A stretch of DNA of 64,000 nucleotides, from positions 92,008,001 through 92,072,000 of the forward strand of contig OZ076409.1 of the NCBI GenBank assembly GCA_964187785.1, read 5' to 3'. Shown here piece by piece: positions 10,598 through 42,256 of the stretch. Origin of the DNA: Amphiscolops sp. MND2022 (taxonomy: Eukaryota). A model generated the notes under the pieces. That model saw nothing but the letters and a program-made list of their open reading frames with translations. It ran no database searches and was not told the DNA's origin. Made by a program: the position numbers and the translations under genes. The first letter of the stretch is position 1; every line of letters starts with the position of its first letter.

Positions 10598-10679
10598 TAA
10601 TTGCAGTCAAATGTGTTTTTTTAAGGTTTGTTTTTGCATTTGCGTTTCGTCAGCGTTACATTGTTATTTCTATATTTTT

Positions 10680-13824: not shown

Positions 13825-13829
13825 TATTC

Positions 13830-15446
13830 TGTTACGACTATTGTTCGGTGTCGTTTTAGAACTAGTCGCAGTTTGTGCTTTGACTGGGGTGGACGTTCTC
13901 GCTACGGAGACGTTTTCTTGGTCAGAATCAGAATCTTGCAAGTTCAGATTAACTGAGCGTTTCTTGTTCGCAGGTGCTATTAATTTGAGCATTTCCTTTT
14001 GATTTTCAGCTAATATTTTTGTTAGATCAGTCATTATCTCTTTTCTCAGAGTTGTTTTTATTTCCTCCAGGTTTTCAAGCTCAAGTCTAGGGTTTTTACT
14101 AGAACTAGGTATCAGGTTTTCGGTGGAGTTATTTTCAGCTAGGGAAGCTTCAAAATCTCCCGACGCTAACTCAGCTATAGCTTTTCTCTTCTGGCTCCTT
14201 GTCGTCGTTTTCAAAGTCGAGATATCAGAGTCTTTGGCAAGAATTAAATTCTTCAAAGAAATTTTGAGTTTTCGTAATTACAACGAGCAACAAAGTTTTG
14301 AAACAAATTCAAGTTCAACTAAAAATACATGTCCTCTCTACATATTTATACCTTCTTAGCATCATTTGTTCCTCACCTAAAAACTCCTAGGAATCTTAAA
14401 AATCGGGTTTGTTCAACAAAATTCGCCGATGATTCAAATTATTTCAGTCTGGCGTCATAAATTCAGGTATCGAAATTCCTAGTTGCGTCAACATTCCGTG
14501 AGACTTTGTTGAAATCATTTTTGTTCAGATAATCCATTTCCTGTTTGATCTTCAAAACCGCGGTAAAATGGAAGTCTAACTGACATTTTCATCGGCGTAG
14601 GCACGCCGGCGTGAACTATTAGTCAATATCCAACTCAAGGAGTTGGAATTTTGAGGAAAAAGATGATGTTCAAAAATGGTGACGGAAACGATACGTCGCT
14701 GAAAATTCGCCGTTGAGAATATTTGAAACGAGAAACAAATGATGCTGATGGGCATTAAGGCAGACTGACTTCAGTATACAACAAACATGAAATTCAACAT
14801 AATAATTGACTTGGGTTACGGGGATACTCCGTATCATGTCCCAAATACTATCTAACTGCAACAGCACAAGAATAAAAATAAAACAATGTAACAAAGGCAT
14901 TTCAAAACTGGTACAAATCCGAAATTGCTTTCGGGATCATTCATTCATCATCATATTTAGGGTTAGGTTATAAAATTAGCATCAAACAGACATCAGTATA
15001 ATTTACGTATACACTTCGTGACTTGGAATTAGGTCCTGAGTAATACAGCTTTTATCATACAGAAAACATGACGTAAGTTTACGAGGATTAGTGCAAAATC
15101 CATCACCATCAACTGATCATAAACTGCAAAGAAAGCATCGGCATGAATTACAGGTACACTCCGTAATATGGCGAACTTCAGAAGATTAAACCGGATATGG
15201 AAAATCTATTAAGCGTGAAATCTTTTAACCGGAAGTTTTAGCTAAAAATCATTTCTCAAAATATTTCGTGACGCATACGTTAGATTCTTATTCTGAAAAA
15301 TTGTCTACGAAATAATCTTAGCTGCACTGTAGGTAGAATTATATTAGTTTAGTTAGTATTTTAATGGTACTTGCAGTATCCCCTTCCTCTGCCTCTTCCT
15401 AGGGCGAAACACCATTCACACCCACGACCGGGAGCGGGTCGTGACA
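13830..15446 (-). repeat. Gypsy-2 terminal 3' LTR with an internal deletion of about 736 bp (equivalent to 33799-34534)
   Basis: Junction ccgtaaTAT/Ggcgaac at 15167-15169 with TAT microhomology. Confidence 0.92.
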
Positions 15447-16007
15447 GGGCCCCTCTCCTCGCTAAATACGTCGGTAGGCCGTGGCAATGGGGAATTTCTT
15501 TTGTGACTAGCACTGAGGGTCGGCTTAGGTAACTTCTCATCGGGTGGGGGCCGCGACCTCTCCCCGCAGTCATACGGGCAATTCTCTTTTCTTCTTCTTC
15601 AAGTTCCCGCACCATGTTTTCAAAATGTTCCCGTTCCTCTTGGGTGATTTCGGGTGGCTTGATTGGTTCATTCAGATCATTCAAGCTTGAGTCTGCTAAT
15701 TGCGTGAGGGGGGTATTTACTTTTCCGCAAGGCTTGAAAGGAGGCTGGCTTGGCTTCTTTGCTACGTTATTTCCCCGTCCTAGGGACCTGAAAAATTGGC
15801 GGTCTTCTAAGTCAAGATCGTAGAGGGCCTCTAAGTCGTCTGCGGAGGGTCCGTTTCCTCCCTGGGCCACGATGGTCCCTCGTTTCCTTTCATTACCCAG
15901 TGTGGGGAAATTTTCTTTTTCTTTACTTTGAGGGGGGAGAGTAGGAGTCTCGGGTTCTTCATAGTAGTCATCAGAGTCGACGTCTTCGGGTAGGGCAAAA
16001 GATACTC
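15361..16007 (-). pseudogene. 5'-truncated third copy of ORF287
   Basis: Sequence breaks within the RVSF codons and joins LTR DNA. Confidence 0.85.
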
Positions 16008-17992
16008 CTTGTCGTCATTTTCAAAGTCGAGATATCAGAGTCTTTGGCAAGAATTAAATTCTTCAAAGAAATTTTGAGTTTTCGTAATTACAACGAGCAA
16101 CAAAGTTTTGAAACAAATTCAAGTTCAACTAAAAATACATGTCCTCTCTACATATTTATACCTTCTTAGCATCATTTGTTCCTCACCTAAAAACTCCTAG
16201 GAATCTTAAAAATCGGGTTTGTTCAACAAAATTCGCCGATGATTCAAATTATTTCAGTCTGGCGTCATAAATTCAGGTATCGAAATTCCTAGTTGCGTCA
16301 ACATTCCGTGAGACTTTGTTGAAATCATTTTTGTTCAGATAATCCATTTCCTGTTTGATCTTCAAAACCGCGGTAAAATGGAAGTCTAACTGACATTTTC
16401 ATCGGCGTAGGCACGCCGGCGTGAACTATTAGTCAATATCCAACTCAAGGAGTTGGAATTTTGAGGAAAAAGATGATGTTCAAAAATGGTGACGGAAACG
16501 ATACGTCGCTGAAAATTCGCCGTTGAGAATATTTGAAACGAGAAACAAATGATGCTGATGGGCATTAAGGCAGACTGACTTCAGTATACAACAAACATGA
16601 AATTCAACATAATAATTGACTTGGGTTACGGGAATACTCCGTATCATGTCCCAAATACTATCTAACTGCAACAGCACAAGAATAAAAATAAAACAATGTA
16701 ACAAAGGCATTTCAAAACTGGTACAAATCCGAAATTGCTTTCGGGATCATTCATTCATCATCATATTTAGGGTTAGGTTATAAAATTAGCATCAAACAGA
16801 CATCAGTATAATTTACGTATACACTTCGTGACTTGGAATTAGGTCCTGAGTAATACAGCTTTTATCATACAGAAAACATGACGTAAGTTTACGAGGATTA
16901 GTGCAAAATCCATCACCATCAACTCATCATAAACTGCAAAGAAAGCATCGGCATGAATTACAGGTACACTCCGTAATATAGTATTTGAAAGGTATAGCAA
17001 TGGCTTAATAAATTAGTATAGAATTCAAGACATTACAACTTTGTTCTTCTCATAATCCTTCCTCACAGTGCAGCTGTTTTCCTCTAAAACCTAATCAAGA
17101 AATTCCTTAGCTAATAATGAACCAGGAAAAATTCTCTTAAACTTTCATTCGTTCCATTCTTTTCTAACTATATGTTCTCAAACCACTCCGCAAATGCTTC
17201 GTATGTATTAAGATTGCTTATAGTAGAGCGGTGGACTACAATTTTACAATTCGCCACGTAACTGCTACGTACGTATAAAGATTGCTTATAGCTAGTAGGT
17301 CAGAGTGGACAGAAAGCGAGCGGAACGCGTAGGCGAATTCATTCTTTCTCTCTTATTCTGATTGGCGTTGCTAGGGGCAACCGAATTCAATACCGCTCGC
17401 GCTAGCTAAGAATAATCCTGCCGAGGAGGTGACGTTATTAGTCCGCGAAAGTAGAATATCTAATTTTAACTCAGTAGAGTGACGCCGTCATTACGTTGTA
17501 AATCCTCTCTTAAGTCACTTGATTGCGCCTTAAGTGGGTATTGACAACTACTTTATCACAGAAAACACCAAAACAACTCTGTCTTTTATGTATTTTTCCT
17601 TTTAGATCGTATGGATTCCGTTGGGATTGCGGGATTTTAAATGTGTTTTATTTTAGTGTGGAACTGAAGAAAAATCCCTGTTGTTAAATGTCTATTTTGG
17701 TATTTAGATCAGTATGGCGAACTTCAGAAGATTAAACCGGATATGGAAAATCTATTAAGCGTGAAATCTTTTAACCGGAAGTTTTAGCTAAAAATCATTT
17801 CTCAAAATATTCCGTGACGCATACGTTAGATTCTTATTCTGAAAAATTGTCTACGAAATAATCTTAGCTGCACTGTAGGTAGAATTATATTAGTTTAGTT
17901 AGTATTTTAATGGTACTTGCAGTATCCCCTTCCTCTGCCTCTTCCTAGGGCGAAACACCATTCACACCCACGACCGGGAGTGGGTCGTGACA
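16005..17992 (-). repeat. Extra internal LTR copy lacking about 365 bp at the U5 end
   Basis: Matches about 32824-34811; junction with CTC microhomology at 16005-16007. Confidence 0.92.
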
Positions 17993-18770
17993 GGGCCCCT
18001 CTCCTCGCTAAATACGTCGGTAGGCCGTGGCAATGGGGAATTTCTTTTGTGACTAGCACTGAGGGTCGGCTTAGGTAACTTCTCATCGGGTGGGGGCCGC
18101 GACCTCTCCCCGCAGTCATACGGGCAATTCTCTTTTCTTCTTCTTCAAGTTCCCGCACCATGTTTTCAAAATGTTCCCGTTCCTCTTGGGTGATTTCGGG
18201 TGGCTTGATTGGTTCATTCAGATCATTCAAGCTTGAGTCTGCTAATTGCGTGAGGGGGGTATTTACTTTTCTGCAAGGCTTGAAAGGAGGCTGGCTTGGC
18301 TTCTTTGCTACGTTATTTCCCCGTCCTAGGGACCTGAAAAATTGGCGGTCTTCTAAGTCAAGATCGTAGAGGGCCTCTAAGTCGTCTGCGGAGGGTCCGT
18401 TTCCTCCCTGGGCCACGATGGTCCCTCGTTTCCTTTCATTACCCAGTGTGGGGAAATTTTCTTTTTCTTTACTTTGAGGGGGGAGAGTAGGAGTCTCGGG
18501 TTCTTCATAGTAGTCATCAGAGTCGACGTCTTCGGGTAGGGCAAAAGATACTCTTGTTAGCCTTTTCTTTTTCCTGGGTGTCGGTGTTTCTTTCGCTGGC
18601 GATTCTGGGCTTGACTCTAATTCGGCGTCGCTTCCACGGTAAACTTCCGTGGAAGAGTCACTGAGGTCAAGTCTTCCGACCATATTTACCGGTACGGTCT
18701 TCAATGGCGTGCTATGTCTCATATTTTCTTCATCTGATGAGATGTCGATGACTAGTGAATATCCTGCCAT
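17907..18770 (-). CDS. Second full copy of ORF287
   Basis: Offset 2650 bp from the copy at 20557; two amino-acid differences (G/R, T/A). Confidence 0.8.
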   Translation of the reverse strand: MAGYSLVIDISSDEENMRHSTPLKTVPVNMVGRLDLSDSSTEVYRGSDAELESSPESPAKETPTPRKKKRLTRVSFALPEDVDSDDYYEEPETPTLPPQSKEKENFPTLGNERKRGTIVAQGGNGPSADDLEALYDLDLEDRQFFRSLGRGNNVAKKPSQPPFKPCRKVNTPLTQLADSSLNDLNEPIKPPEITQEEREHFENMVRELEEEEKRIARMTAGRGRGPHPMRSYLSRPSVLVTKEIPHCHGLPTYLARRGALSRPTPGRGCEWCFALGRGRGRGYCKYH

Positions 18771-19414
18771 TTTTTAAAGCGGTAGAAATTGCGAAGTTTC
18801 TTTAATTTATGTAGGCGAGATTGTTTATTTAGATTAGTGAAGCGCTGGTCAAGCCTTGTGAAAATTGAACGACAAATGAACGTTTCACTTTGCTTTCTTT
18901 CGTAATTTCCATCGAATTCTTATTGGTCGATTTCTGTTTTCGTTCCGGTTCGTCCCGAGTTAGGTGAAACGAACTCTTTCCTGCTGCGCTGTGATTGGTT
19001 TAAATCCTTAAGGAAAACTTCTAATTTTAGCTCTCGTCCTCTTTTAGATTAATGGCGTAATGACATCTTTGACTTTCATTGTCGAATTACGTCCGTATTT
19101 CATGATCTCTTGATGTTTTTCCATGATTTTCTTTAGTAATTCTCAATGAATGTCTCTCCACCAGTAGGGTTTTTGGAAACGTTTTGTTTCGTCAATGCTT
19201 ATGATAAGCTTGAGATGTGAAGCTATGAATGGTTCCTTTTCCTTTTGAGCGAGAATGATATTAAGTTCATTTAATTAGATGCGTTCACGTAACGCGTTTT
19301 CGTCTTTTTCATTTTTCTTTTTAGGATTTCCGTGATAGTTCCGTGTAGTTTCTGTTTTATATTTCTTTTTTCTTTTAGATTTCCTTGACAAGTTCGTCTT
19401 TCTTCGTGTCTGGT

Positions 19415-19765
19415 ATGATGGATCAAGAAGAGGTAGAACGTGGCACTGCTGTAACTTCTGGTCACATAAGTGGAAATGAGACTGGCTACAATTATTCCGA
19501 AGATGACATAGTGTCTACGGAGAATGTAGTTGGATTGTCTACTTCAGGTTGGTAAATACTTTCTGATTTCCATGGGAATCCGGACCTTGGTATTTTTGGT
19601 GATCAGCCTTTTTGGTCCTACCCGTAACTCTGACGCGTCTGAATCCAGATCTTGATTTTCAGTAGCTCAACCTGGTTTTCCTTCCACTTCTCTTGGATTG
19701 GTTGTGGGAAATCCCTCTCCCGTCTTGCCACCAGCTAGTAGTCTCCTGTCAGTTGGAACTCCTCC
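19415..19765 (+). pseudogene. Duplicated exon 1 and part of exon 2 of the cargo gene
   Basis: Part of the 2650-bp tandem unit; truncated at the junction. Confidence 0.75.
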
Positions 19766-20642
19766 AATGAACCAGGAAAAATTCTCTTAAACTTTCATTC
19801 GTTCCATTCTTTTCTAACTATATGTTCTCAAACCACTCCGCAAATGCTTCGTATGTATTAAGATTGCTTATAGTAGAGCGGTGGACTACAATTTTACAAT
19901 TCGCCACGTAACTGCTACGTACGTATAAAGATTGCTTATAGCTAGTAGGTCAGAGTGGACAGAAAGCGAGCGGAACGCGCAGGCGAATTCATTCTTTCTC
20001 TCTTATTCTGATTGGCGTTGCTAGGGGCAACCGAATTCAATACCGCTCGCGCTAGCTAAGAATAATCCTGCCGAGGAGGTGACGTTATTAGTCCGCGAAA
20101 GTAGAATATCTAATTTTAGCTCAGTAGAGTGACGCCGTCATTACGTTGTAAATCCTCTCTTAAGTCACTTGATTGCGCCTTAAGTGGGTATTGACAACTA
20201 CTTTATCACAGAAAACACCAAAACAACTCTGTCTTTTATGTATTTTTCCTTTTAGATCGTATGGATTCCGTTGGGATTGCGGGATTTTAAATGTGTTTTA
20301 TTTTAGTGTGGAACTGAAGAAAAATCCCTGTTGTTAAATGTCTATTTTGGTATTTAGATCAGTATGGCGAACTTCAGAAGATTAAACCGGATATGGAAAA
20401 TCTATTAAGCGTGAAATCTTTTAACCGGAAGTTTTAGCTAAAAATCATTTCTCAAAATATTCCGTGACGCATACGTTAGATTCTTATTCTGAAAAATTGT
20501 CTACGAAATAATCTTAGCTGCACTGTAGGTAGAATTATATTAGTTTAGTTAGTATTTTAATGGTACTTGCAGTATCCCCTTCCTCTGCCTCTTCCTAGGG
20601 CGAAACACCATTCACACCCACGACCGGGAGCGGGTCGTGACA
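19766..20642 (-). repeat. Extra internal partial LTR (U3 side, about 877 bp)
   Basis: Matches about 33936-34811; blunt junction at 19765/19766. Confidence 0.92.
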
Positions 20643-21420
20643 GGGCCCCTCTCCTCGCTAAATACGTCGGTAGGCCGTGGCAATGGGGAATTTCTTTTGT
20701 GACTAGCACTGAGGGTCGGCTTAGGTAACTTCTCATCGGGTGGGGGCCGCGACCTCTCCCCGCAGTCATACGGGCAATTCTCTTTTCTTCTTCTTCAAGT
20801 TCCCGCACCATGTTTTCAAAATGTTCCCGTTCCTCTTGGGTGATTTCGGGTGGCTTGATTGGTTCATTCAGATCATTCAAGCTTGAGTCTGCTAATTGCG
20901 TGAGGGGGGTATTTACTTTTCTGCAAGGCTTGAAAGGAGGCTGGCTTGGCTTCTTTGCTACGTTATTTCCCCGTCCTAGGGACCTGAAAAATTGGCGGTC
21001 TTCTAAGTCAAGATCGTAGAGGGCCTCTAAGTCGTCTGCGGAGGGTCCGTTTCCTCCCTGGGCCACGATGGTCCCTCGTTTCCTTTCATTACCCAGTGTG
21101 GGGAAATTTTCTTTTTCTTTACTTTGAGGGGGGAGAGTAGGAGTCTCGGGTTCTTCATAGTAGTCATCAGAGTCGACGTCTTCGGGTAGGGCAAAAGATA
21201 CTCTTGTTAGCCTTTTCTTTTTCCTGGGTGTCGGTGTTTCTTTCGCTGGCGATTCTGGGCTTGACTCTAATTCGGCGTCGCTTCTACGGTAAACTTCCGT
21301 GGAAGAGTCACTGAGGTCAAGTCTTCCGACCATATTTACCGGTACGGTCTTCAATGGCGTGCTATGTCTCATATTTTCTTCATCTGATGAGATGTCGATG
21401 ACTAGTGAATATCCTGCCAT
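20557..21420 (-). CDS. ORF287: accessory 287-aa protein of unknown function, overlapping PPT and U3
   Basis: Intact ATG..TAA ORF with RKKKR, RVSF, acidic tracts, GRG repeats and C-terminal CEWC-x11-CKYH. Confidence 0.8.
   Translation of the reverse strand: MAGYSLVIDISSDEENMRHSTPLKTVPVNMVGRLDLSDSSTEVYRRSDAELESSPESPAKETPTPRKKKRLTRVSFALPEDVDSDDYYEEPETPTLPPQSKEKENFPTLGNERKRGTIVAQGGNGPSADDLEALYDLDLEDRQFFRSLGRGNNVAKKPSQPPFKPCRKVNTPLTQLADSSLNDLNEPIKPPEITQEEREHFENMVRELEEEEKRIARMTAGRGRGPHPMRSYLSRPSVLVTKEIPHCHGLPTYLARRGALSRPAPGRGCEWCFALGRGRGRGYCKYH
20643..20659 (-). promoter_or_regulatory. Polypurine tract AGCGAGGAGAGGGGCCC before LTR TG (copies at 15447 and 17993)
   Basis: Purine run abutting the TGTCACG LTR start. 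Confidence 0.75.
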
Positions 21421-22065
21421 TTTTTAAAGCGGTAGAAATTGCGAAGTTTCTTTAATTTATGTAGGCGAGATTGTTTATTTAGATTAGTGAAGCGCTGGTC
21501 AAGCTTTGTGAAAATTGAACGACAAATGAACGTTTCACTTTGCTTTCTTTCGTAATTTCCATCGAATTCTTATTGGTCGATTTCTGTTTTCGTTCCGGTT
21601 CGTCCCGAGTTAGGTGAAACGAACTCTTTCCTGCTGCGCTGTGATTGGTTTAAATCCTTAAGGAAAACTTCTAATTTTAGCTCTCGTCCTCTTTTAGATT
21701 AATGGCGTAATGACATCTTTGATTTTCATTGTCGAATTACGTCCGTATTTCATGATCTCTTGATGTTTTTCCATGATTTTCTTTAGTAATTCTCAATGAA
21801 TGTCTATCCACCAGTAGGGTTTTTGGAAACGTTTTGTTTCGTCAATGCTTATGATAAGCTTGAGATGTGAAGCTATGAATGGTTCCTTTTCCTTTTGAGC
21901 GAGAATGATATTAAGTTCTTTTAATTAGATGCGTTCACGTAACGCGTTTTCGTCTTTTTCATTTTTCTTTTTAGGATTTCCGTGATAGTTCCGTGTAGTT
22001 TCTGTTTTATATTTCTCTTTTTCTTTTAGATTTCCTTGACAAGTTCGTCTTTCTTCGTGTCTGGT

Positions 22066-25000
22066 ATGATGGATCAAGAAGAGGTAGAACGTGGCACTGC
22101 TGTAACTTCTGGTCACATAAGTGGAAATGAGACTGGCTACAATTATTCCGAAGATGACATAGTGTCTACGGAGAATGTAGTTGGATTGTCTACTTCAGGT
22201 TGGTAAAATCTTTCTGACTTCCATGGGAATCCGGACCTTGGTATTTTTGGTGATCAGCCTTTTTGGTCCTACCCGTAACTCTGACGCGTCTGAATCCAGA
22301 TCTTGATTTTCAGTAGCTCAACCTGGTTTTCCTTCCACTTCTCTTGGATTGGTTGTGGGAAATCCCTCTCCCGTCTTGCCACCAGCTAGTAGTCTCCTGT
22401 CAGTTGGAACTCCTCCTGGCTTTAGGGCTGCGCTTGCCCAGGCAGCTACGTCGGCCGTGCCCGCTGAATTTCCTCCTACTGAGGATATTGTTACGACTTG
22501 CTCTCGTACTCAACTCGATGCTGTGTCTCAAGGAGGTGAGACTAATTCCCCCTCCGAGGAAGAAACAAGTTAGTAGGTTTTGTCGTTGTCGTATTAATGC
22601 GCTGAAAAAAGGTGGCTAGTGATGGGAGTATTGGGTTTGTGTTTAGGTCCTTCAGTTCGTCAAAGGCGGTCACAGGTCGTGAGCTTTTCGACACCGCCTA
22701 AACGAGCTAAAACGGGCGATACTCCTCCTCCTTCACCATTGACTCCTGCCGAGGGGTGGATTAGTTAGTGCATTTTGTATTATCGCACTGTTGCACGGGT
22801 ATTGTTGTGGGGTTCGAATATCTTGACGAGTTAAAATAGTGTGATTTTTGAAATCATCTACTTTGTAAGGTTGTTTTGTAGTGTCATTGTGTTGTAGGTA
22901 ACGACGAGTTGACGTTGAGTCCGCAGGGTCTGAAGTTGATGGGTCAGCAGATTGTGGAAGAAGTTGACACCCGGACTGCTCGGGCAATTCGGAATAGTGA
23001 GTATTTGTTTGTACTATATGCATAGGTTAGTTGCAGGGTGGGTTTTTAGGGTATGGTTTTCCACGATGTCATTCCGTTTGTCGTGTGTTGCAGGTTTCAG
23101 TGAGTTGAAAACGAGGATGGACGCGCAAACTGACAGTCGCACAAAAGCCAAAAAGTACAGTCGCAAGAACATGTTGAGCAAACGCATGTTATCGTTGCAT
23201 CCCGCATACCGTGATTTCGTGAGTGGATCAAAGACGGGGGCCGGGACTCACTTTCATTGCCTGGTCTGTAAGCGTGATGTGGCCATGGGATCGCAGGGGT
23301 CTCGAGAGTTTGCTCGGCATTTCCAGTCTGACAGTCACTGGGACAAGGATGTCGTATACCGGGTTCATATGGGCATGCCCGTGTTGAACAAACTGATGGA
23401 GCCCTTGCAGCTAAGTGAAGAGCAGCTTGCTGAGTATCGCGCGAAGCCTTTCGTTGAGCTGGGTACTGGGTATCCGTTTCCTGAGGATCTCCTGCCGAAA
23501 CACTCCCGCGTGGAATCAAAAATTCCCTTCATGACCTTTGTGGGCTGTCTCTGTGATTTGTTGCGTTGTGGAGGCGATTTTGCTCTGGTGCGGCAACTCT
23601 GGAGTCACTTTTGTGTGTCACTGGACAAGCAGAAGGCTGATTTCGCTTTGCATTGGAGTCGTTCGGAATCCGTGGTAACTTGTGTGTTTTGTGTGTTTGG
23701 CTTCCTGTTCATCGTTTGGAGTTTGAGAGTTCATAATTTCCCGGTTTTATTTGTTGTTTTCAATAGTGTTCTTCTTTTGGAGTTATTGTGCTCTTCTTCT
23801 CTCTTTTTTTTCTTTCTTTTTTTTCTTTTTTTTTCAGACGTAGGTATAACGAATCATTGTGGCGTTTGTATTTTAGTCGTTTCTCTGTCAGGGGCTTGCT
23901 CCTCGAGTTCTTCGTCTAATGGTCAATGGGATAACGACGTTCAAGGACTATAGTGTCCAGTTCGAGAAGGATCTTTTCGTGTAGCGTTGCTACGTCCTAT
24001 TTTGGGAAAGTAATCAGTTGAAGAAAGTGTGTGTGGGGAGTGAGCCTATTGATCAGCCTGTTCCTGATGCAGAGTTGGTACCCCTGTCCCGCGTGATCCA
24101 TGTTCTGGAGTCAAAGCATTTGCCGTTAATTGTTCGTGGTGCCAGTCCCAGTTTGCTGAGTGTGATGGGCAGTAATCGTTCGGATGGTCGCCGTTTTGTT
24201 GTGTACCACGAGTTCAATGAGGAGACCTTCATACAGTTCCTGCGTCAAGCTCATCAGGACATATTTGGGATGGTAGATATCATTACCATCGTGGAGTATT
24301 TGATTCAAGGGCTCCGGAATGCTGTTTACGAGGAGTGGACGGAGGACAAGGTTGTGCTATGCAGATGTCTTCGAAGAGGCTCCGTTGAGTTCTATGAGTA
24401 TCGCGAGTTGTTGACAGACTTGATTAGTCTTTGGCCTTCAATTCGTCCGTACATCCGTTGTACTGTCAATCCCGAAGCACGTGGCAAATCAGCTACTGTT
24501 AGTATTTTTATTGGTTGCTTTGTCGTTTGCATCACGTGTTGTTTGTAGCTATAGTCGGTTTGATTGTGTTTTTGTTCTTTTCCAGATGTTTGGGACAGAC
24601 TGGCATCTGATTGCTGATAACATGATCGTGCAGCGCTTGGGTCTGTTGCGATTTGTTCTCGACACTTGTAAGTATGATGCTGATTGGTGTTGTTCTCAAT
24701 TGATGCTTGTATCTATCCAGTATAATTGTGTCGTTTGTTATTGTCTGATTGCGTTTGGTGTTCGGTTGTAGTGTTCGGTATTATCTTTGTAAACCCTTGT
24801 TGGTGTTTTAGTTCAAATTAATTTTGAGCAGATGCGTCAGCAACGAAAGGATTACGGCTTCCATGGCTACAGTGAATTGTGTCATTTTGTGTACTGTCTA
24901 CTTCTGCGGACTCGGGAGATTGAGTCATTGCCTGGTATCCATGATTGGGAGGCGTACATGGACGTGAAGAAAATGTCCGAATACCCTGCTGCATCAATGG

Positions 25001-26037
25001 AGACTTTCTTGGACAATTGTGACTTCGGTCGTGAGTTGCTCGCTGGAAAAACGTCTGAGGCTCAGGAGTTCCGTAGATATTGTCGTGATTTCCTGGATCA
25101 GCTGGTCACTGTCATTTTGAACAGTCCTAGTGTGTCATCTGTTGTGGCGAAAGGCCTCTGCAGTTTCAGTCCTGAGATTCTGTTGGAGGGAGATGCCCAT
25201 TCCGTGTTTACCTTATTTGCAGATCTTACTGGAGTATTGGTTTCCTGTGGAATTTTATCGTCCGATGATTCGAACGCTGCTATTGCTCAATTCAGCAGTT
25301 ACGTGGTGGAGAAAAGGAGGTGGCACGAAGGGTCTGACGTGAATGCCAGCGAGATCCCGGATGTGGTACGCTATTTGTTGCAGGACTTTAGGTTTGTCGC
25401 TCGTCCGGAAGTGTGCCGAGTTCTGAAGTTATGCTGTCTTGTAGTTGGGGTCCCCGCAGTGCAGTATCCTCCCGTATCATTTGATCTGAGCGGCTGTGCT
25501 TTGAGTAAAGCTGTCTTCCATGATTGCGTACGCTTAGTGCAATCGTACGTTTTGTGTGCGGGGTATGAGCATCAGGTGTTCTTTACTGATGTGACTTTGG
25601 ATGCGGTTCGAGATGCCATCGTTACTGCAGGGATCTTTTATATTACTCCCAGCTATGATCTCTGGAAGAATTACTGTGATCCTGGTGTGGACTCATTCAT
25701 CGCCAACTATCGCAAATTGTATTCTACATTTTTGCTGGAACGCCGCAAATCTTCAGAGAGGTATTATGTGGAGTGCAATAAAGCGAACAGACGTGCTCGT
25801 GGCAGTGTCGGGGCTTCTGGATCAGAGACCGGCAGTAATGTGAGCGGCGCTTCGAAGAAGAGTAAGAGCGGGAGTACTACGATACATGGTGGCGCGTCCG
25901 GGTCAAAGTCTGTGAAAAAGGTATCTAGTCAGTCTAGTCATTCTGGACAGTCGAAGAAACCAAAAGGTGGCACAAAGGGGCGGAAGAAGGATTCTAGTGA
26001 GGAACGAGATCCTGATGTCGTCCATAGAGTGGCATAA
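22066..26037 (+). CDS. Antisense 8-exon cargo gene (about 1032 aa): low-complexity N-terminus, C2H2 zinc finger, degenerate hAT-transposase-like body, basic tail; one in-frame TAG at 23982-23984
   Basis: Exons 22066-22198, 22314-22568, 22647-22763, 22898-22996, 23094-23674, 23892-24497, 24586-24667, 24812-26037. All seven introns are GT-AG with matching phases; the total is 3099 nt = 1033 codons. Confidence 0.78.
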
Positions 26038-26186: not shown

Positions 26187-29100
26187 CTAGGCGTGAGTTT
26201 GACGTAGTTCTTCCGTCGTAGCTGAGTCTAGCATTCTAAAGTCAGGATCCACGTTAGGTTTCGGATTAGGTCTCAGATTGTATCGACCTACTTTCCTAGG
26301 GTTATATCCAACGACTATAGGCGGTAGTTCAGGCGTTTTGGGAGGGCTTTCTAGAGGCGGTGGTGTTAGTATATAGGGATTGTCACTGACATCCAGATTA
26401 AATGACGTTACGTTGTCGGGGGGTGTTTTGTCTCCTTCGGCTGTTTCATTTGTGGCTGTTTGAGCCACGTCATTTTCCGTTGTAATCTCGCTTGTGGTTG
26501 TTTGAACCACGTCATTTTGCGTTGTAGGTTCGTCATTTTCGATTGTATCTGTGATCTCTGTGATTGTAGTTTCTTCTTTGGCGTTTTCCGTTGCGTCTCC
26601 GAACAGAACTTCTCCGAATTCGGTTTCCCAAGCTTGCGCGTACCAATCATTGTGGGTTGTTTTAACCTCTGGATCTGGAAGGTAATCTTCCCTTCTGACT
26701 GTTACGTCAGGTACTCGCTGATTGGGCGCATATAGCCTTAGGCGAATTCTATGGAGGGTTTGCGTGTAGCGGGTTCCTGTGCGGCGTACGACGTAGTTGT
26801 TGTTGGACAGTACTTTGACGACGATGTACGGACCCGTCCAGATGCAATCTTTGAAAACGAATTTCATTGACTGGTTGTCAGCTTTCGGATTCAAGACGTA
26901 GCAGTAGTCATTCACTTTGAGTGGCGTTGCAGTCGCTTTCTTGTCATAGTATTGTTTGTACTTGAGATATGACTGCATGAGATTGTCTTTAGCTGCTTGT
27001 TGTATCTCAGCTATCTGCTTCTGTAGTTGATCCGTTAGTTCGTCGTTGTTGTCTTTTTTCCATTCCGGCTTTAGTCCCAGCTTGATGTCTAGGATGTTAT
27101 ACGGGATGCGTCCGTGGAACACTGTTGTAGGTTCGCAGCCTAAACTTTCATGGTAGCTTGTATTGTAATTCATGACTGCTATTTGGACATATTTGTGTCA
27201 CATGGATCGTCGTTCCCCCGTCGATATCTTTAGGGAGGTTTTTAAAGAGGCATGAGTCCATTCTAGGATGCCAATGGTTTGAGCGTGTTTCGTCGTTGCG
27301 TGGCTTATTCGTATATCGAGTGTTCGTGCTATTTGGTCGACTACTTCTGACCTGAATTGTGATCCTTTATCTGTTAGTATAACGGTCGGTAGGTAGCAGT
27401 GTCGTGTCATGACGTCTATTATGCATCGTGCGACTGTTTTTGCTGTCATGTCCTGTGTCGGGTATGCGAAAAGATAACGAGAGAAGACGTCCATCATCGT
27501 GACGATGTGCTGATATCCATTGGAGGATGGTAGATTTGGTAGTATATCTACTTCTAGGCAATCTTCTGGTCCCAATGTGAATTCAGTGTTGCTCAGCATT
27601 TTGGGACGTATCTGTCGCGTGTCGATTCTTTTGTTGGCGATGCAGTCTGGGCAACTGGTAACCCAGGCGCGGATTTTTCGTGCTAGTCCCGGGAAATAGT
27701 ATTTGGCTCGGCATTCTTGTATCATCTTTGCTATTCCTGGATGTTTATTTGTCTTGCCATGTAGTGTTGATAGGAGTTCTGGTACAAGGTGTTTAGGAAT
27801 GATGACTTGATTGTGCGTGACTGATCCGTCCTCACCGTAGTATTTGCGCATTAGTACCCCATCTTTCATGATGATTCTTTCTTCGTGGCGTAGTAGGTGG
27901 CGTCCTCGTGGTTCAGTCTTTAGTAGGTGTTTGTCCTATTCTTCGTGCGACACCCGTTGTTTTAACGCTTTCAGTAGGGGGTCCGCATCTTGTTCGTTTC
28001 TGATTCGTGCGTTTTCTTTGATCGCTCCGAATGCATATACTGCGGAGTTGAGGGGTATTTTGATGACTTCGGTGACTTTGGTAGAAAGATCTTTTTCATG
28101 TTCGTCGTTGGCACGTTGTTTACTGAGGGCTTTCCAAGCGAAGATTTCTTGTTCTGATTCTTCCTCTTCATCTGGGAGGAAGAAAAGTTGTTCTTCATTC
28201 GCTACATCCGATGACTGTAGGTTTACTTCTATCGGTGCCGTAAGTATGTCGTACCGTAATTTCAGTTGTACTTTCTCTTTAGGTGTGAGTTCAAGTCTTG
28301 AGAGGAAATCTGCTGCCGTATTTTGTGACCCTGCTACGTGCATGATGCGGAAATTAAATTGGAGTACCTAGTCGCAGGCATTCCAAAGTGCAGGTGGTGT
28401 AGTTTTCGTTTGGAAAAATCGTGTGACCGAACGGTTGTCGGTTAAAACTAGCGTCGGTATTGTCGCTTCCCATAATATATGGCTGTATTCGAGGAAGGCG
28501 TGATATATGGCTAGAAATTCTTTGCAATAGATTGACATTTTCAGTTGTGCTGGTGAAAAAACACGGGATCCAAACGCGACAGGTGCGAAGGTTTTCTTTT
28601 TGGATAGTATTTTCTTTTCATCGTTTTCTTCTATCATGAGGGCATAGCCAGATGCGCGAAAACTTGCGTCTGTCATGAGAACGTATTGCTTTCCTGCTAA
28701 GGGCTGTCGGAGCGCGAGGCCACATTCTTCTGCTAGGCTGTCGTTGATTTCTTTGAAGTTGTCGACGAGTTCTTCGGATATTTTGATCTTGGCGTCGGCC
28801 TTTAGGAGTTCGTACATGCCTATGAGTTTTTCGGACAGGCGGGGTATGTAATTGCGATAATAATTGACGAATCCGATGTATTTTTGAACCTGTTTTTTGG
28901 ACTTGGGGAATCGAACTTTAGAAAGGAAGTTTTTGACTTTCTGGTCTTGCGGTGCTATTCCGTCTGGGGTGATGGTTCTGCCGAGGAATTCAACTTGTGT
29001 AACTCCGAAATGACATTTTTCGATTGTCAATTTCAGGCCTGCTTGTCTGATGCATTTGAAAACTGCTCTAATGTTCTTGATGAGTTGTTCCGTCGTATTT

Positions 29101-31437
29101 GCGGCAATACCAATGTCATCTACATACTGTGCACACTGATCTGCTTTGATGACTGCGTCGAGGTACTCTCGCATGAAGCTTGAGAAGGCTGAGAGGGCTC
29201 TACTTAGTCCTTGGGCTAGGCGCCGGTAGGCGAACGTTCTACTAGCAAAGTTAAAAGCAAGTAATTCTACTGACCTTTGATCTGCCATTTGAAGGCAGTG
29301 GTACGCTTGGGAGCAGTCGAGTTTGCAGAAAAGTTTTTTCCCAGCTAGGTGTTGTGCCGCATCTGAGAGGGTGCTGACGGGGTGGTTGTTGTTGATGTAG
29401 TCATCTGCTATGAGTGCGTTGATTTTGCGCAGATCCACCAGTAGTCTCAGTTTGCCGTTGGGTTTCCGTTGTGCAAATATAGGACTGGCGTACTTGGAGA
29501 AGGGGAGTGTCGTGATGATGCCGTATTTGTGCATGAGGGCCAGCTCTACTGTCAGGTCTTCTTTGAGATTGATTGGGACTGGTAGACTCTGGGTGTATAC
29601 TGGTTTATCATCTCTTGGTGTGAGGCTGACTTTGAATTGCGTGTTCATTCCGATGTCGAGACGGTGGCGGGCAAATATGTCGTTAAATTCGACTAATGTG
29701 CTTTCAAGGTTTTCACGGTCTTTGCCCGTAATTAGTGAGTCAGTCCATTTGAATAACGAAAGGAATTTGTGTCGAGATTCAGCGTTTTCAGTTGGATCTA
29801 GTTTTTCTAGTTCGGCAAGTTCTCGTAGTTCTTTCAAAATTCGTTTTTGTATGGCGGTGTGTTCTTGTTCATTGCCAGGGTTGTCTGGGGTTGGGAACCA
29901 GAATTTTTCTTCAATATCTTCGGGTTTGTCGACTTGCATAAGTGCGTTGATGTATGTGACTACATCGTCGTGCTCTGTTAGAAGGTTGAGTGCAGCGATG
30001 TCTACAGGCCGTATCAGTTTCGTTTCTTCTGGTTTGAGGATTTGTAGTTCCGCGATCTTGGTGTCTGGAGCTATCGTATAGGGGAAGTCTGTTGTGTTGG
30101 CGACCTTGATTGCTACTTTCTTGCTTCTGGCTGTTGTGATTGCTGGGGCTACTATTAGTTTTGAGTTTTCGTCGAATTGTGGTAGGGGCTGGATTGTCCC
30201 TGTGATGGTGTGTTCTGTTGTCACGGGTATCACTGCGTATATTATTCGCGTTGCTTGTGCTGGTATAGTATGTTTCGCTTCCGTTTTAATGGTGATAGGT
30301 TTCAGATTGCATTTTTGCATTTCGTCTGTGAGTGCCATCGTAATTTGAATCTTCGGGAAGTCAATTGTTCCGGGCAGTGTCGAGAATTGCGGCATGTTTC
30401 CGTAGGAATGCTAGTCCGATGATGGGGAAGGACATCTGGTTCATGACAATGAACGTTTCCTCAAAGTTATAGTTGCCAATTTTGAAACGTAATGTATACG
30501 TTGCCAGAGGTTGCTCGAGTTCAGCATTAGCATATTGTACCTTGAAAGGGGGTGGGGGTGCCTTGTGTATGATGCATTGGTTTGCATCTTGTCGGAGTTT
30601 TTCGGCGTCTCTTTCACTAATGGCATTGATGTATGCACCTGAGTCGACGAGGGCGTCTATTTTGACGGAATTGAAGTCTACTGGTAAGAAAAGCATTCGT
30701 TTTTTCTTTTTCAGTGTAATTGCTGACATTAGCGGAATGTAGTCGTCATCTTTGTCATGTTGTATGAATTCCTTGATGACGTCTAGGTCGTCGGGTAGTG
30801 ATGTTGGGTATTCTATTTCTGCATCGTTGCTTCTCGTCATCGCTGTGGCTGGTGCTGTCTGTGTGGGCGGTGGAGATGATGAATCAATGGTTGGGTCTTC
30901 AGGCTTCTGTTGCCACAACGTTTTATCTTCAATGCAAATGATGTCCTCTGCGTTTATGGGCGTGGACGTGACGGTGACGGGCACTGTTGGGGAAGGTCCT
31001 GGGTTCTTCAATATCGGTGAGGGCGGTGGTGGAAAATGATGTGTTTCTCTGGGCTGGGGCTGTGGGTTTGGTATCTGGATTTTGAAAGCAAGTTTGTTGT
31101 GGTCGTATATGTGGGGGTTGTCCCAAGGATCACATCTGTAGTCCACGTCATATATGTATGTTCGTTCAGTTTTGGATTCTGGCAGAGGTCGTTTCAGTGT
31201 GGCATAATTGTCAGGCGACTCCGTTATCCATTGGGGTAGTGGTGTTGGGTCTTCTGGGTGTCGTGCATTGTGTCTAAGTATCATGCCTACGTTCCAACGA
31301 CGTTGCCAGTCCTGTGTCGGTTCTTCGTTGCATTCTGTGAAGAAATCTTCCTCGTATCTATTTGGGGGGTCTTCGATGTTGTACGCCCTCGCGTCTACTT
31401 TTTCCCCGAACCGTAGACGCGGCGATTTTAGTTTTTT
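26187..31437 (-). pseudogene. pol: Gypsy-2 pol (PR LVDSGA; RT YVDD; RNase H; integrase H..H/C..C, D,D; long C-tail), disabled by one frameshift and three nonsense codons
   Basis: ORFs 30361-31284, 28368-30395, 27936-28343, 27198-27869, 26187-27173; the last four are in one frame separated by TAG, TAG, TGA. Confidence 0.95.
31384..31437 (-). promoter_or_regulatory. -1 ribosomal frameshift signal: A_AAA_AAC plus downstream hairpin
   Basis: Slippery heptamer 31431-31437 directly before the gag TAA; stem CGCGTCTAC/GTAGACGCG; the -1 frame is open into pol. Confidence 0.8.
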
Positions 31438-32885
31438 GTTTGGGTGTTGGCGGTGGGGACAGGGGCGTCACTGATTTTGTCCGTGGGGATGGTGAATTCC
31501 CTCTTCTTTCGTCTGGGGTCATTTGCCGCATTTGCTCCGTTCCAACAATTCTCGGTTTTGTGCATTTTTCCGCATGTATTGCACTTGGGTTTGGGGGCTT
31601 CGCTTTGGTTTAAGTCTTTGGTAGGAGGTTTGGCGTTGTTGTAGCGTTCTCTCTGGAGCCTGCGACACTGTGCTTTATAGTGGCCGTATTTTCCGCAGTG
31701 GAAACAATGACCTCGTTGTTGTTGGTCTTTTTTGTCTTCCGTCACTACAGCGTCCACTGTGTTGAGTGGGACTAGGGTGGTTTCATCGGGCGCTCCTAGT
31801 CCGTTTAATCGCATTTCCCGTTCGAGGTGGAGAATTATATCATTGTAGGGTTTATCCTCCAAGTATGCCCTGTTGAGTATCTTTTTTACGTGGTCGGGCA
31901 TTTTGGCGTAGATTGCGTTGTCGATGAATTTCTGTGCTTCAGAGCCAAACGCTTCTTTCGCGGTTTTTTGTAGGATATCAAGGAATTCGTGTAGTTTTTG
32001 TTTGGTGGGGTCAAAGTGGAGTGCGTCCCACTCGCATCTTGCTTTGGCGGAGGATTGAAAATTGCCAAAACGTCGTTTGAAAGCCGTTATGACTTCTTCC
32101 AGATTGTCTTTTTTAGTGTCGTCTAGGTTGCAGTACGCTTGGAGTGCGTTCCCGCGTAGTAGTGAGTGGAAGTAGTTGATTTTTTGGATTTCCGTCAAGT
32201 GGGGATACATTTTAATATTGTTTCGGAACAAGTCCTCAAAAAGTTGAAATTTTTTGGACTTACCATCAAAAACTGGAAGCGAAGCTGTGAGGGCTTTCGG
32301 CATCGGAAGTGGGTGGGCAGATGGGAACGTCTGCGGTTGTGGTGCGAACAGTATCTTTGACGTGGATGGTCGGTCTTTTGGTTGTTCGCTGAGTATACGT
32401 TGTGCTTTTGGTCTTTTGGTGGGTTGGTTAGTGGAATCATTGAGGACTCCTGTCACCATGTTACGACTATTGTTCGGTGTCGTTTTAGAACTAGTCGCAG
32501 TTTGTGCTTTGACTGGGGTGGACGTTCTCGCTACGGAGACGTTTTCTTGGTCAGAATCAGAATCTTGCAAGTTCAGATTAACTGAGCGTTTCTTGTTCGC
32601 AGGTGCTATTAATTTGAGCATTTCCTTTTGATTTTCAGCTAATATTTTTGTTAGATCAGTCATTATCTCTTTTCTCAGAGTTGTTTTTATTTCCTCCAGG
32701 TTTTCAAGCTCAAGTCTAGGGTTTTTACTAGAACTAGGTATCAGGTTTTCGGTGGAGTTATTTTCAGCTAGGGAAGCTTCAAAATCTCCCGACGCTAACT
32801 CAGCTATAGCTTTTCTCTTCTGGCTCCTTGTCGTCATTTTCAAAGTCGAGATATCAGAGTCTTTGGCAAGAATTAAATTCTTCAA
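31428..32885 (-). CDS. gag: Gypsy-2 gag (intact; likely start MTTRSQ at about 32837), two CCHC knuckles
   Basis: CFHCGKYGHYKAQC and CNTCGKMHKTENC; reads through the LTR end and PBS. Confidence 0.92.
   Translation of the reverse strand: MKNLILAKDSDISTLKMTTRSQKRKAIAELASGDFEASLAENNSTENLIPSSSKNPRLELENLEEIKTTLRKEIMTDLTKILAENQKEMLKLIAPANKKRSVNLNLQDSDSDQENVSVARTSTPVKAQTATSSKTTPNNSRNMVTGVLNDSTNQPTKRPKAQRILSEQPKDRPSTSKILFAPQPQTFPSAHPLPMPKALTASLPVFDGKSKKFQLFEDLFRNNIKMYPHLTEIQKINYFHSLLRGNALQAYCNLDDTKKDNLEEVITAFKRRFGNFQSSAKARCEWDALHFDPTKQKLHEFLDILQKTAKEAFGSEAQKFIDNAIYAKMPDHVKKILNRAYLEDKPYNDIILHLEREMRLNGLGAPDETTLVPLNTVDAVVTEDKKDQQQRGHCFHCGKYGHYKAQCRRLQRERYNNAKPPTKDLNQSEAPKPKCNTCGKMHKTENCWNGANAANDPRRKKREFTIPTDKISDAPVPTANTQTKN
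32446..32458 (-). promoter_or_regulatory. PBS TGGTGACAGGAGT (tRNA-Leu-like)
   Basis: Abuts the LTR-terminal CA. Confidence 0.8.
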
Positions 32886-34811
32886 AGAAATTTTGAGTTT
32901 TCGTAATTACAACGAGCAACAAAGTTTTGAAACAAATTCAAGTTCAACTAAAAATACATGTCCTCTCTACATATTTATACCTTCTTAGCATCATTTGTTC
33001 CTCACCTAAAAATTCCTAGGAATCTTAAAAATCGGGTTTGTTCAACAAAATTCGCCGATGATTCAAATTATTTCAGTCTGGCGTCATAAATTCAGGTATC
33101 GAAATTCCTAGTTGCGTCAACATTCCGTGAGACTTTGTTGAAATCATTTTTGTTCAGATAATCCATTTCCTGTTTGATCTTCAAAACCGCGGTAAAATGG
33201 AAGTCTAACTGACATTTTCATCGGCGTAGGCACGCCGGCGTGAACTATTAGTCAATATCCAACTCAAGGAGTTGGAATTTTGAGGAAAAAGATGATGTTC
33301 AAAAATGGTGACGGAAACGATACGTCGCTGAAAATTCGCCGTTGAGAATATTTGAAACGAGAAACAAATGATGCTGATGGGCATTAAGGCAGACTGACTT
33401 CAGTATACAACAAACATGAAATTCAACATAATAATTGACTTGGGTTACGGGAATACTCCGTATCATGTCCCAAATACTATCTAACTGCAACAGCACAAGA
33501 ATAAAAATAAAACAATGTAACAAAGGCATTTCAAAACTGGTACAAATCCGAAATTGCTTTCGGGATCATTCATTCATCATCATATTTAGGGTTAGGTTAT
33601 AAAATTAGCATCAAACAGACATCAGTATAATTTACGTATACACTTCGTGACTTGGAATTAGGTCCTGAGTAATACAGTTTTTATCATACAGAAAACATGA
33701 CGTAAGTTTACGAGGATTAGTGCAAAATCCATCACCATCAACTGATCATAAACTGCAAAGAAAGCATCGGCATGAATTACAGGTACACTCCGTAATATAG
33801 TATTTGAAAGGTATAGCAATGGCGTAATAAATTAGTATAGAATTCAAGACATTACAACTTTGTTCTTCTCATAATCCTTCCTCACAGTGCAGCTGTTTTC
33901 CTCTAAAACCTAATCAAGAAATTCCTTAGCTAATAATGAACCAGGAAAAATTCTCTTAAACTTTCATTCGTTCCATTCTTTTCTAACTATATGTTCTCAA
34001 ACCACTTCGCAAATGCTTCGTATGTATTAAGATTGCTTATAGTAGAGCGGTGGACTACAATTTTACAATTCGCCACGTAACTGCTACGTACGTATAAAGA
34101 TTGCTTATAGCTAGTAGGTCAGAGTGGACAGAAAGCGAGCGGAACGCGTAGGCGAATTCATTCTTTCTCTCTTATTCTGATTGGCGTTGCTAGGGGCAAC
34201 CGAATTCAATACCGCTCGCGCTAGCTAAGAATAATCCTGCCGAGGAGGTGACGTTATTAGTCCGCGAAAGTAGAATATCTAATTTTAGCTCAGTAGAGTG
34301 ACGCCGTCATTACGTTGTAAATCCTCTCTTAAGTCACTTGATTGCGCCTTAAGTGGGTATTGACAACTACTTTATCACAGAAAACACCAAAACAACTCTG
34401 TCTTTTATGTATTTTTCCTTTTAGATCGTATGGATTCCGTTGGGATTGCGGGATTTTAAATGTGTTTTATTTTAGTGTGGAACTGAAGAAAAATCCCTGT
34501 TGTTAAATGTCTATTTTGGTATTTAGATCAGTATGGCGAACTTCAGAAGATTAAACCGGATATGGAAAATCTATTAAGCGTGAAATCTTTTAACCGGAAG
34601 TTTTAGCTAAAAATCATTTCTAAAAATATTCCGTGACGCATACGTTAGATTCTTATTCTGAAAAATTGTCTACGAAATAATCTTAGCTGCACTGTAGGTA
34701 GAATTATATTAGTTTAGTTAGTATTTTAATGGTACTTGCAGTATCCCCTTCCTCTGCCTCTTCCTAGGGCGAAACACCATTCACACCCACGACCGGGAGC
34801 GGGTCGTGACA
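32459..34811 (-). repeat. Gypsy-2 5' LTR (2353 bp); contains the gag start and the last 86 nt of ORF287
   Basis: Minus strand begins TGTCACG and ends ..GTAACA directly before the PBS; near-identical to 13830-15446. Confidence 0.95.
34180..34200. promoter_or_regulatory. CCAAT box next to an RFX X-box-like palindrome GTTGCTAGGGGCAAC in U3 (copies about 17361-17381 and 20011-20031)
   Basis: Fits GTNRCY-N3-RGYAAC; TATAAG motifs lie downstream on the minus strand. Confidence 0.5.
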
Positions 34812-34816
34812 TATTC

Positions 34817-41398: not shown

Positions 41399-41584
41399 TT
41401 TAGTGCTAAATAGAACAATTCTACTTCGGCTGTTACTTAGGTAGACCGTGTGCTCAGCCCCTTTCAGGCAGGACACGCTACAATTGATAAAACAAAGTAG
41501 AGTGAGTGTGTCGCAACGTATGAACGCAACCCCTTTCAGGCAGGTTCCTACAAAAACAGGAAATTTAAGACAATACCTTGGAGC

Positions 41585-42184: not shown

Positions 42185-42238
42185 GTAGATTCCAATAAAT
42201 TTTTCCAAGAGAAAAATTAAAACGGTCTCACCATGGAA

Positions 42239-42256
42239 ATCACGTCGGGGTCACCA
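42239..42256 (-). promoter_or_regulatory. tRNA-Trp PBS TGGTGACCCCGACGTGAT
   Basis: 18-nt match to the classical tRNA-Trp PBS (as in avian sarcoma-leukosis viruses), 3 nt from the 5' LTR. Confidence 0.9.

What the first reader, a model, noticed from the sequence alone, without database searches (positions are those of the whole stretch)
20557..21420. ORF287: nef-like 3' accessory ORF with a PP1-docking RVxF motif, GRG repeats and a C3H motif encoded in U3
Seen: a sense ORF crosses the PPT and ends 86 nt inside the LTR, so the CEWC-x11-CKYH motif and final GRGRGRG are LTR-encoded. RKKKRLTRVSF (RVSF at 21193-21204) is followed by acidic residues. Established: basic-RVxF-acidic is the protein phosphatase 1 docking signature used by GADD34, HSV ICP34.5 and ASFV DP71L; GRG repeats are PRMT5 and Tudor-domain substrates; HIV nef and MMTV sag overlap U3 similarly. 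Inference: a disordered host-modulating effector, for example recruiting PP1 or decoying piRNA Tudor proteins.
Basis: partly seen in the sequence, partly recalled or inferred. Interest (0 to 1): 0.75.

Follow-up and report, generated by a model that had tools for sequence, protein, structure and literature searches.

The report
Retrotransposon-encoded PP1 and SUMO adaptor
A large family of LTR retrotransposons in this animal genome keeps an extra, strongly conserved gene beside its 3' LTR; its predicted-disordered protein is predicted to dock the host phosphatase PP1 and probably SUMO, and so would likely act as an element-encoded adaptor that helps the element stay expressed.

Summary
The ORF is real, but lies on the minus strand (21420 to 20557). 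It is the last sense gene of a Ty3/gypsy element and ends 86 nt inside the LTR. Relatives number in the hundreds. 133 full copies fall into 19 subfamilies; dN/dS between them is 0.05-0.22. RVxF holds in 17 of 19 subfamilies, and a folding model puts RVSF in the PP1 groove (0.86, best control 0.10; a textbook pair). C3H holds in 3 of 19. Residues 257-266 are fixed as PPT/LTR-end DNA. A CRE-like site and two CCAAT boxes upstream point to an internal promoter. Beside it lies a conserved, probably spliced antisense gene. There is no Nef, Sag or GADD34 homology and no expression data. Best reading: a nuclear adaptor bringing PP1 to SUMO-marked complexes; the target is inferred. New accessory-gene family of a known kind.

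The parts
20557..21420 (-). ORF287, sense 3' accessory gene; predicted disordered but for helix 195-219
21376..21411 (-). Residues 4-15: hydrophobic V-I-D-I core followed by S-S-D-E, phospho-SIM-like (predicted)
   Evidence: invariant in 19 of 19 subfamily representatives with synonymous variation; SIM definition from PMC4476178 passages
21349..21363 (-). S-T-P-x-K, residues 20-24: CDK site / polo-box docking-like (motif names recalled)
   Evidence: 19 of 19
21193..21225 (-). Basic cluster (NLS-like) plus RVSF, predicted PP1 docking motif
   Evidence: 17 of 19 subfamilies; model interface residues 72-78
21148..21162 (-). Acidic aromatic motif YYEEP, partner unknown
   Evidence: pattern in 19 of 19
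20680..20694 (-). EIPHC motif; with C272 the only invariant Cys/His residues
20620..20652 (-). PPT and LTR 5' end (TGT at 20642); codons 257-266 almost without synonymous change, so a DNA-level constraint
20557..20642 (-). LTR-encoded tail (86 nt here, 86-95 nt in all 19 subfamilies): Cys plus Gly/Arg-rich end; C3H not conserved
21572..21717 (-). Internal promoter-like block: CCAAT at 21576 and 21648, degenerate CRE at about 21703-21717
   Evidence: two CCAAT 66-78 nt apart in 120 of 133 copies and 19 of 19 representatives (shuffles 0.7%); full CRE in 18 of 19 (shuffles 0.5%)
17907..18770 (-). Second full copy of ORF287 in a 2650-bp tandem unit
15361..16012 (-). Third, 5'-truncated copy, joined to the gag start by a deletion
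23018..26037 (+). Antisense gene, probably spliced from at least three exons (open frames 23018-23953, 24165-24548, 24832-26037; donor-like GT at about 23675 and 24498); C2H2-like finger in the first; head-to-head with ORF287
26187..32837 (-). gag and pol (protease, RT, RNase H, integrase; pol interrupted); gag ATG at 32837 lies inside the 5' LTR
32446..32458 (-). Primer-binding site, 13 nt complementary to the 3' end of host tRNA-Leu(CAG)
32459..34811 (-). 5' LTR, 2353 bp, TG...CA
13825..13829 (.). Target-site duplication, matching 34812-34816

Best explanation
ORF287 is a conserved accessory gene of a Ty3/gypsy retrotransposon family, likely expressed from its own internal promoter, whose predicted-disordered protein is predicted to dock PP1 through RVxF and probably SUMO through an N-terminal motif, and so would bring the phosphatase to SUMO-marked nuclear complexes to favour the element's expression. 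Shown: the ORF, its place, purifying selection, which motifs are kept, the upstream CCAAT/CRE block. Predicted: disorder, PP1 docking. Inferred from motif shape only: SUMO binding, nuclear import by the basic cluster, switching by CK2, CDK and Aurora-type phosphorylation (S or T at the x position of RVxF), RNA or chromatin contact by the basic Gly/Arg end. Inferred only: the target (SUMO-dependent silencing or transcription complexes) and the benefit. My odds by step: real protein 0.95; PP1 docking in this subfamily 0.7; SIM binds SUMO 0.55; anti-silencing or transactivating role 0.35.
For: dN/dS 0.05-0.22 in 47 of 51 subfamily pairs, 4 saturated; in 7 test pairs 0.10-0.21 in frame against 1.2-3.9 in four other frames, and about 0.2, with stops, in the codon-registered antisense frame. 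ORF identity falls to about 30% while integrase stays at 82-96%, yet the short motifs persist. SIM-like and STPxK motifs 19 of 19 with many synonymous codons. RVxF 17 of 19 subfamilies and 43 of 66 database representatives; V74 and F76 invariant in 21 long-clade proteins. One short clade has K-I-T/N-F at a shifted place, with a second Phe nine residues on and S-P between, the RepoMan spacing read from the primers in PMC5005033: motif turnover suggests selection for docking. Complex model: 0.86, best control 0.10; the mark was reached by 51 of 78 solved and 2 of 108 mismatched pairs; runs share at least 83% of contacts; partner pLDDT at least 47; residues 72-78 sit in the RVxF groove. Host has PP1 and SUMO genes. 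No transmembrane stretch (max hydropathy 0.4).
Against: No transcript or protein evidence. The 216-aa subfamily (0 of 17 copies) and the largest sampled 244-aa subfamily (1 of 27) lack an intact RVxF yet are young and multi-copy, so PP1 docking is dispensable in some lineages. The complex is a textbook pair that can pass from memory, used a stand-in PP1 (88% identical to the host's second exon), and the test is uncalibrated for peptides and disordered chains. SUMO binding was not modelled; SIM-like strings are common (PMC4476178 passage) and my pattern was fitted after seeing the motif. A sister family has a same-place ORF with neither motif. No target is identified.
Confidence: 0.4

Rival explanations
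1. Rev/CERV-like factor: it binds the element's genomic RNA through the basic Gly/Arg end and promotes export or packaging, with PP1 and kinases only regulating it.
For: Net charge +12 in residues 215-287, NLS-like cluster, one helix that could oligomerise; invariant EIPHC and C272. CERV of Cer1 sits in the env position and needs phosphorylation and cysteines for export (PMC10309623).
Against: CERV has folded, ring-forming domains and a spliced mRNA; ORF287 is predicted disordered, the helix is missing in all 9 short subfamilies, and the best-kept part is the acidic N-terminus.
Confidence: 0.2
2. Cell-cycle timer or tether: like RepoMan/Ki-67 (or MLV p12, recalled), it is switched by CDK, polo and Aurora kinases and ties PP1 or the integration complex to chromatin at mitotic exit.
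For: Invariant S-T-P-x-K, also present in the sister family's ORF; S/T at the RVxF x position; RepoMan-like spacing in the short clade; tandem CCAAT promoter.
Against: No KiR-SLiM as defined in PMC5005033 is visible in the alignment; separate from gag, so no evident route into the particle.
Confidence: 0.15
3. piRNA-pathway decoy: methylated GRG repeats soak up Tudor proteins.
For: An RG-G motif in 16 of 19 subfamilies; R150-G151 and tail glycines invariant with synonymous change.
Against: The triple GRG is in only 4 of 19; Arg is often replaced by His, Gln or Lys in the tail.
Confidence: 0.1
4. GADD34/ICP34.5-like translation rescue: it bridges PP1 to eIF2-alpha.
For: RVxF and model.
Against: No Pfam PP1c-binding/GADD34 match in 42 members; no conserved block after RVxF like the eIF2-alpha bridge needed by DP71L (PMC10807198 passage); NLS-like and SIM-like motifs point to the nucleus.
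Confidence: 0.07
5. Neutral frame, kept open by chance or by overlapping DNA signals.
For: Codons 257-266 are DNA-constrained; sampled loci were best protein hits, which favours intact frames; no RNA data.
Against: dN/dS far below 1 at dS up to 3, third-position excess (109 against 25 and 29 in one pair), frame-specific; 104 of 136 matches carry no stop (my count).
Confidence: 0.02

Closest known systems
Viral PP1 regulatory proteins: HIV-1 Tat, HSV gamma34.5, ASFV DP71L, TGEV protein 7 (PMC10807198, passages read)
   Same: Small parasite protein with an RVxF predicted to dock PP1; Tat is the nearest in logic (nuclear, basic, serves viral transcription).
   Different: No sequence family match; encoded by an LTR retrotransposon; carries an invariant SIM-like N-terminus; no eIF2-alpha bridge seen.
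HIV/SIV Nef and MMTV Sag (recalled)
   Same: Last sense ORF, crossing the PPT into U3; short-motif-rich.
   Different: No Gly2 myristoylation signal, no folded core, no transmembrane segment, no Pfam match; probably an internal promoter, not a spliced LTR mRNA.
CERV of C. elegans Cer1 (PMC10309623, abstract and passages)
   Same: Non-env accessory gene of a gypsy element between pol and 3' LTR; NLS-like cluster, cysteines, phosphosites.
   Different: CERV is folded, multimeric and spliced to gag exons; ORF287 is predicted disordered and has RVxF and SIM-like motifs.
Plant Retand/Tat elements with antisense TRP28 ORFs (PMC11963269 abstract; PMC7264820 first part)
   Same: Long pol-to-3'LTR region with family-wide extra ORFs of unknown function, one antisense.
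   Different: Animal host; antisense gene has conserved splice-donor-like sites and no TRP28 match; paired head-to-head with a sense U3-overlapping ORF.
RepoMan / Ki-67 PP1-binding region (PMC5005033, passages)
   Same: Basic-RV[S/T]F open to phosphorylation; same Phe-to-Phe spacing in the short clade.
   Different: No KiR-SLiM; no homology; the long clade, with this ORF, has F-x-L-P after RVxF.
VANC anti-silencing proteins of VANDAL transposons (PMC5735166, search listing only)
   Same: Fast-diverging element-specific accessory gene with a possible anti-silencing role.
   Different: DNA transposon, plant, folded DNA-binding protein (recalled); role shown there, only inferred here.

Membership tests
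Ty3/gypsy LTR retrotransposon (host element) | gag, then PR-RT-RH-IN order | tested here: met
   Pfam
Ty3/gypsy LTR retrotransposon (host element) | TG...CA LTRs, PBS, PPT, target-site duplication | tested here: met
RVxF-type PP1 interactor | [RK]-x(0,1)-[VI]-x-[FW] with basic residues before, in a disordered region | tested here: met
RVxF-type PP1 interactor | Motif conserved among homologues | tested here: met
   17 of 19 subfamilies; lost or degenerate in 2
RVxF-type PP1 interactor | Measured binding lost on V/F mutation | not testable with these tools
   model only
GADD34 / ICP34.5 / DP71L family | Homologous PP1c-binding domain with eIF2-alpha-binding block after RVxF | tested here: not met
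   no Pfam match at E<=1 in 42 members; no such conserved block
Nef / Sag | ORF overlapping U3 | tested here: met
   19 of 19 end 86-95 nt inside the LTR
Nef / Sag | Sequence homology; Gly2 myristoylation (Nef) or membrane anchor (Sag) | tested here: not met
Phospho-SIM protein | V/I-rich four-residue core flanked by Ser and acidic residues | tested here: met
   19 of 19; definition; core here is V-I-x-I
Phospho-SIM protein | SUMO binding raised by CK2 phosphorylation | not tested
   the one complex job went to PP1
CCCH / C3H zinc finger | Three Cys and one His conserved | tested here: not met
   3 of 19 subfamilies
env-like or sORF2/FAST fusogen | Transmembrane segment | tested here: not met
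   max 19-residue hydropathy 0.4; sORF2 abstract
hAT transposase origin of the antisense gene | Profile or fold similarity to hAT transposase | tested here: inconclusive
   no match to a shallow host hAT profile, Pfam or folds

The most novel reading that the evidence does not exclude
This gypsy lineage is organised like a complex retrovirus: a head-to-head accessory cassette in which ORF287 is an element-encoded, SUMO-targeted PP1 regulatory subunit that strips phosphorylation from host silencing or transcription complexes, and the spliced antisense zinc-finger gene supplies sequence specificity. It would be an animal LTR-element anti-silencing system.
Probability: 0.2. Interest if true: 0.88.

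Novelty: new variant of a known kind. Interest (0 to 1): 0.62.

Why it matters
Extra ORFs of LTR retrotransposons mostly have no known function. This one comes with hundreds of natural variants that single out the motifs under selection, so a precise test exists: PP1 and SUMO binding. My searches found no retrotransposon-encoded RVxF protein in the listings (8 of 10 papers listed, 15 of 98, 15 of 50; open-licence library only). If binding holds, an animal retrotransposon recruits a host phosphatase as viruses do, possibly against SUMO-dependent silencing.

Tried and rejected
No RNA holder was listed; this says nothing on expression, and no reads were laid. Pfam: nothing for ORF287 or, beyond noise, 42 members. 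ESM Atlas: no usable hit for ORF287 or antisense exon C. Profile search of 1.84 billion representatives: 182 hits; the 23 I read look like family members or fragments, and the 20 clusters looked up carry no names. Antisense gene as hAT transposase (my recalled guess): no support; only exon C was folded. Env-like spliced expression: no strong acceptor within 150 nt of the ATG in 19 of 19 representatives by a crude pattern; not excluded. PxIxIT/PxVxL-like motif near residue 236: 8 of 19, dropped. Homology to the sister family's 3' ORF: none. The PF11976 search returned mostly ubiquitins; SUMO was found among lower hits. Dropped rows: of 150 loci, 10 gave no ORF start by my pattern and 7 were truncated, leaving 133. 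Earlier scan findings: none. The host species was not determined. Supplements were not read.

Full report
Observation. The ORF lies on the minus strand, 21420 to 20557, 287 aa. RVSF is at 21193-21204 and the LTR begins at 20642, so the last 86 nt, with CEWC-x11-CKYH and the GRG tail, are LTR-encoded.

Element. Pfam shows gag, protease, RT, RNase H and integrase on the same strand: a Ty3/gypsy element. The 5' LTR runs 34811 to 32459 (2353 bp). It is followed by a 13-nt PBS complementary to the 3' end of a host tRNA-Leu(CAG), and GAATA flanks both element ends. The gag ATG (32837) lies inside the LTR. The 3' end is rearranged: a 2650-bp tandem unit gives a second full ORF, and a deletion leaves a third, truncated one. 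A copy on C9 has three tandem units too.

Family. Four searches of the 1.07-Gb genome scored 136, 150, 146 and 151 matches, partly overlapping and capped; 104 of the 136 have no stop (my count). The protein database gave 99 clusters, all from one source type and unnamed. From 150 loci I took 133 full ORFs in 19 clusters at 90% identity; these were best hits or hand-picked, so biased to intact copies. The tree splits a long clade (270-301 aa among the genomic clusters) from a short one (216-244 aa), support 95/90, midpoint root.

Selection. dN/dS is 0.05-0.22 in 47 of 51 subfamily pairs, 4 saturated. In 7 pairs the coding frame gives 0.10-0.21; four other frames give 1.2-3.9, and the codon-registered antisense frame about 0.2 with stops. 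Integrase stays 82-96% identical while the ORF drops to about 30%. AlphaFold2 with 42 sequences gives mean pLDDT 54, pTM 0.17 and one confident helix.

Motifs. Invariant in 19 of 19 representatives, with varied codons: Y4, L6-E14, S20-T21-P22, K24, P27, N29, L34, S37, S40, E89, P91, R150-G151, E243-H246, C272, G280, G282. Codons 257-266 barely vary at all, so they are held as PPT and LTR-end DNA. By subfamily: SIM-like 19, STPxK 19, aromatic-EEP 19, EIPHC 19, RVxF 17, RG-G 16, triple GRG 4, C3H 3. C3H is therefore rejected. RVxF is kept across the long clade amid changing neighbours; a short subclade has K-I-T/N-F at a shifted position with RepoMan-like spacing; it is absent from the 216-aa subfamily and F is replaced in 26 of 27 copies of one 244-aa subfamily. 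The N-terminal V-I-D-I-S-S-D-E fits the phospho-SIM description in PMC4476178 (passages); binding was not tested.

PP1 model. Residues 58-100 with a stand-in PP1 scored 0.86, best control 0.10; the mark was reached by 51 of 78 solved complexes and 2 of 108 mismatched pairs; runs share at least 83% of contacts; partner pLDDT at least 47; residues 72-78 contact the RVxF groove. The alignments were not used. This is a textbook pair, so the pass shows likeness, not binding. The host has a PP1-beta-like gene and a SUMO gene.

Expression. No RNA run was listed. Upstream of the ATG, two CCAAT boxes 66-78 nt apart occur in 120 of 133 copies and all 19 representatives (0.7% of shuffles), and a full CRE in 18 of 19 (0.5%), while the spacer to the ATG varies. 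An internal promoter is the likely route; this is inferred.

Neighbour. Between integrase and ORF287 an antisense gene appears in 39 of 40 long loci at about 40-70% identity. Its open frames end in conserved GTRAGT-type donors; exon C has dN/dS 0.07-0.28 in 30 of 33 pairs, 0.73 in one close pair, two saturated. The antisense direction would protect its introns in genomic RNA (inference). No family or fold was found. Two distant gypsy families at the window's ends carry it too. One has its own multi-copy 209-216-aa U3-overlapping ORF, unalignable with ORF287, with S-T-P-K but no RVxF or SIM: the slot is older than its content.

Mechanism. The simplest reading of the kept motifs is a phospho-regulated nuclear adaptor joining PP1 to SUMO-marked complexes, to the element's benefit (0.4). 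Rivals: RNA export factor (0.2), cell-cycle tether (0.15), Tudor decoy (0.1), eIF2-alpha rescue (0.07), neutral (0.02).

Known relatives and novelty. It works, at best, like a viral PP1 regulator such as Tat (PMC10807198, passages), sits like Nef (recalled), and parallels CERV (PMC10309623, abstract and passages) and plant Retand extra ORFs (PMC11963269 abstract; PMC7264820 first 10,000 characters). It belongs to none of these families by the tests run. Searches listed no retrotransposon-encoded PP1 or SUMO adaptor; I saw only listings for most papers, in an open-licence library. Verdict: a real, new accessory-gene family of a known kind, function predicted and untested; interest 0.62.

Noticed in passing
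window 23018-26037 (+): Conserved, probably spliced antisense gene with a C2H2-like finger, under purifying selection, shared with distant gypsy families; no family or fold found. Deserves its own follow-up.
   Followed up: partly
window 32459-32837: The gag ORF starts 378 nt inside the 5' LTR and reads through the PBS, so 3' LTRs carry the first 126 gag codons; both LTR ends are protein-coding.
   Followed up: partly
L212:8784-9413 (-), just left of the window: Sister gypsy family with its own 209-216-aa Ser/Pro-rich ORF ending inside U3; 150 scored matches; conserved STPK and a Trp/Ser-rich block; no homology to ORF287.
   Followed up: partly
window 13830-22416; L213: Tandem amplification of the promoter-ORF-partial LTR cassette here (2650 bp) and on C9 (about 2.9 kb, three units); mechanism or assembly origin not examined.
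   Followed up: no
L031, L041 and others: Near-identical antisense genes pair with different ORF287 subfamilies, which suggests module exchange by recombination.
   Followed up: no
window 28368-30395 (-): Weak herpesvirus dUTPase-like Pfam match (E 0.029) between protease and RT.
   Followed up: no
window 43970-49452: Tandem duplication of about 2.75 kb with an internal 22-nt repeat array, related to the LTR/gag start of the element at 58459.
   Followed up: no
window 36109-42465 (-): BEL/Pao-looking element with 206-bp terminal repeats (99% identical); family assigned by eye only.
   Followed up: no
window 7786-11519 (-): LINE-like element with endonuclease- and RT-like ORF; by eye only.
   Followed up: no
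G000 C8:35.59-35.63 Mb and C11:6.00-6.02 Mb: Long tandem arrays matching the tRNA-Leu 3' end pattern.
   Followed up: no
L155, L157, L159: Intronless genes joining several ubiquitin-like domains to a C-terminal domain with an H-G-T motif (PARP-like by eye).
   Followed up: no
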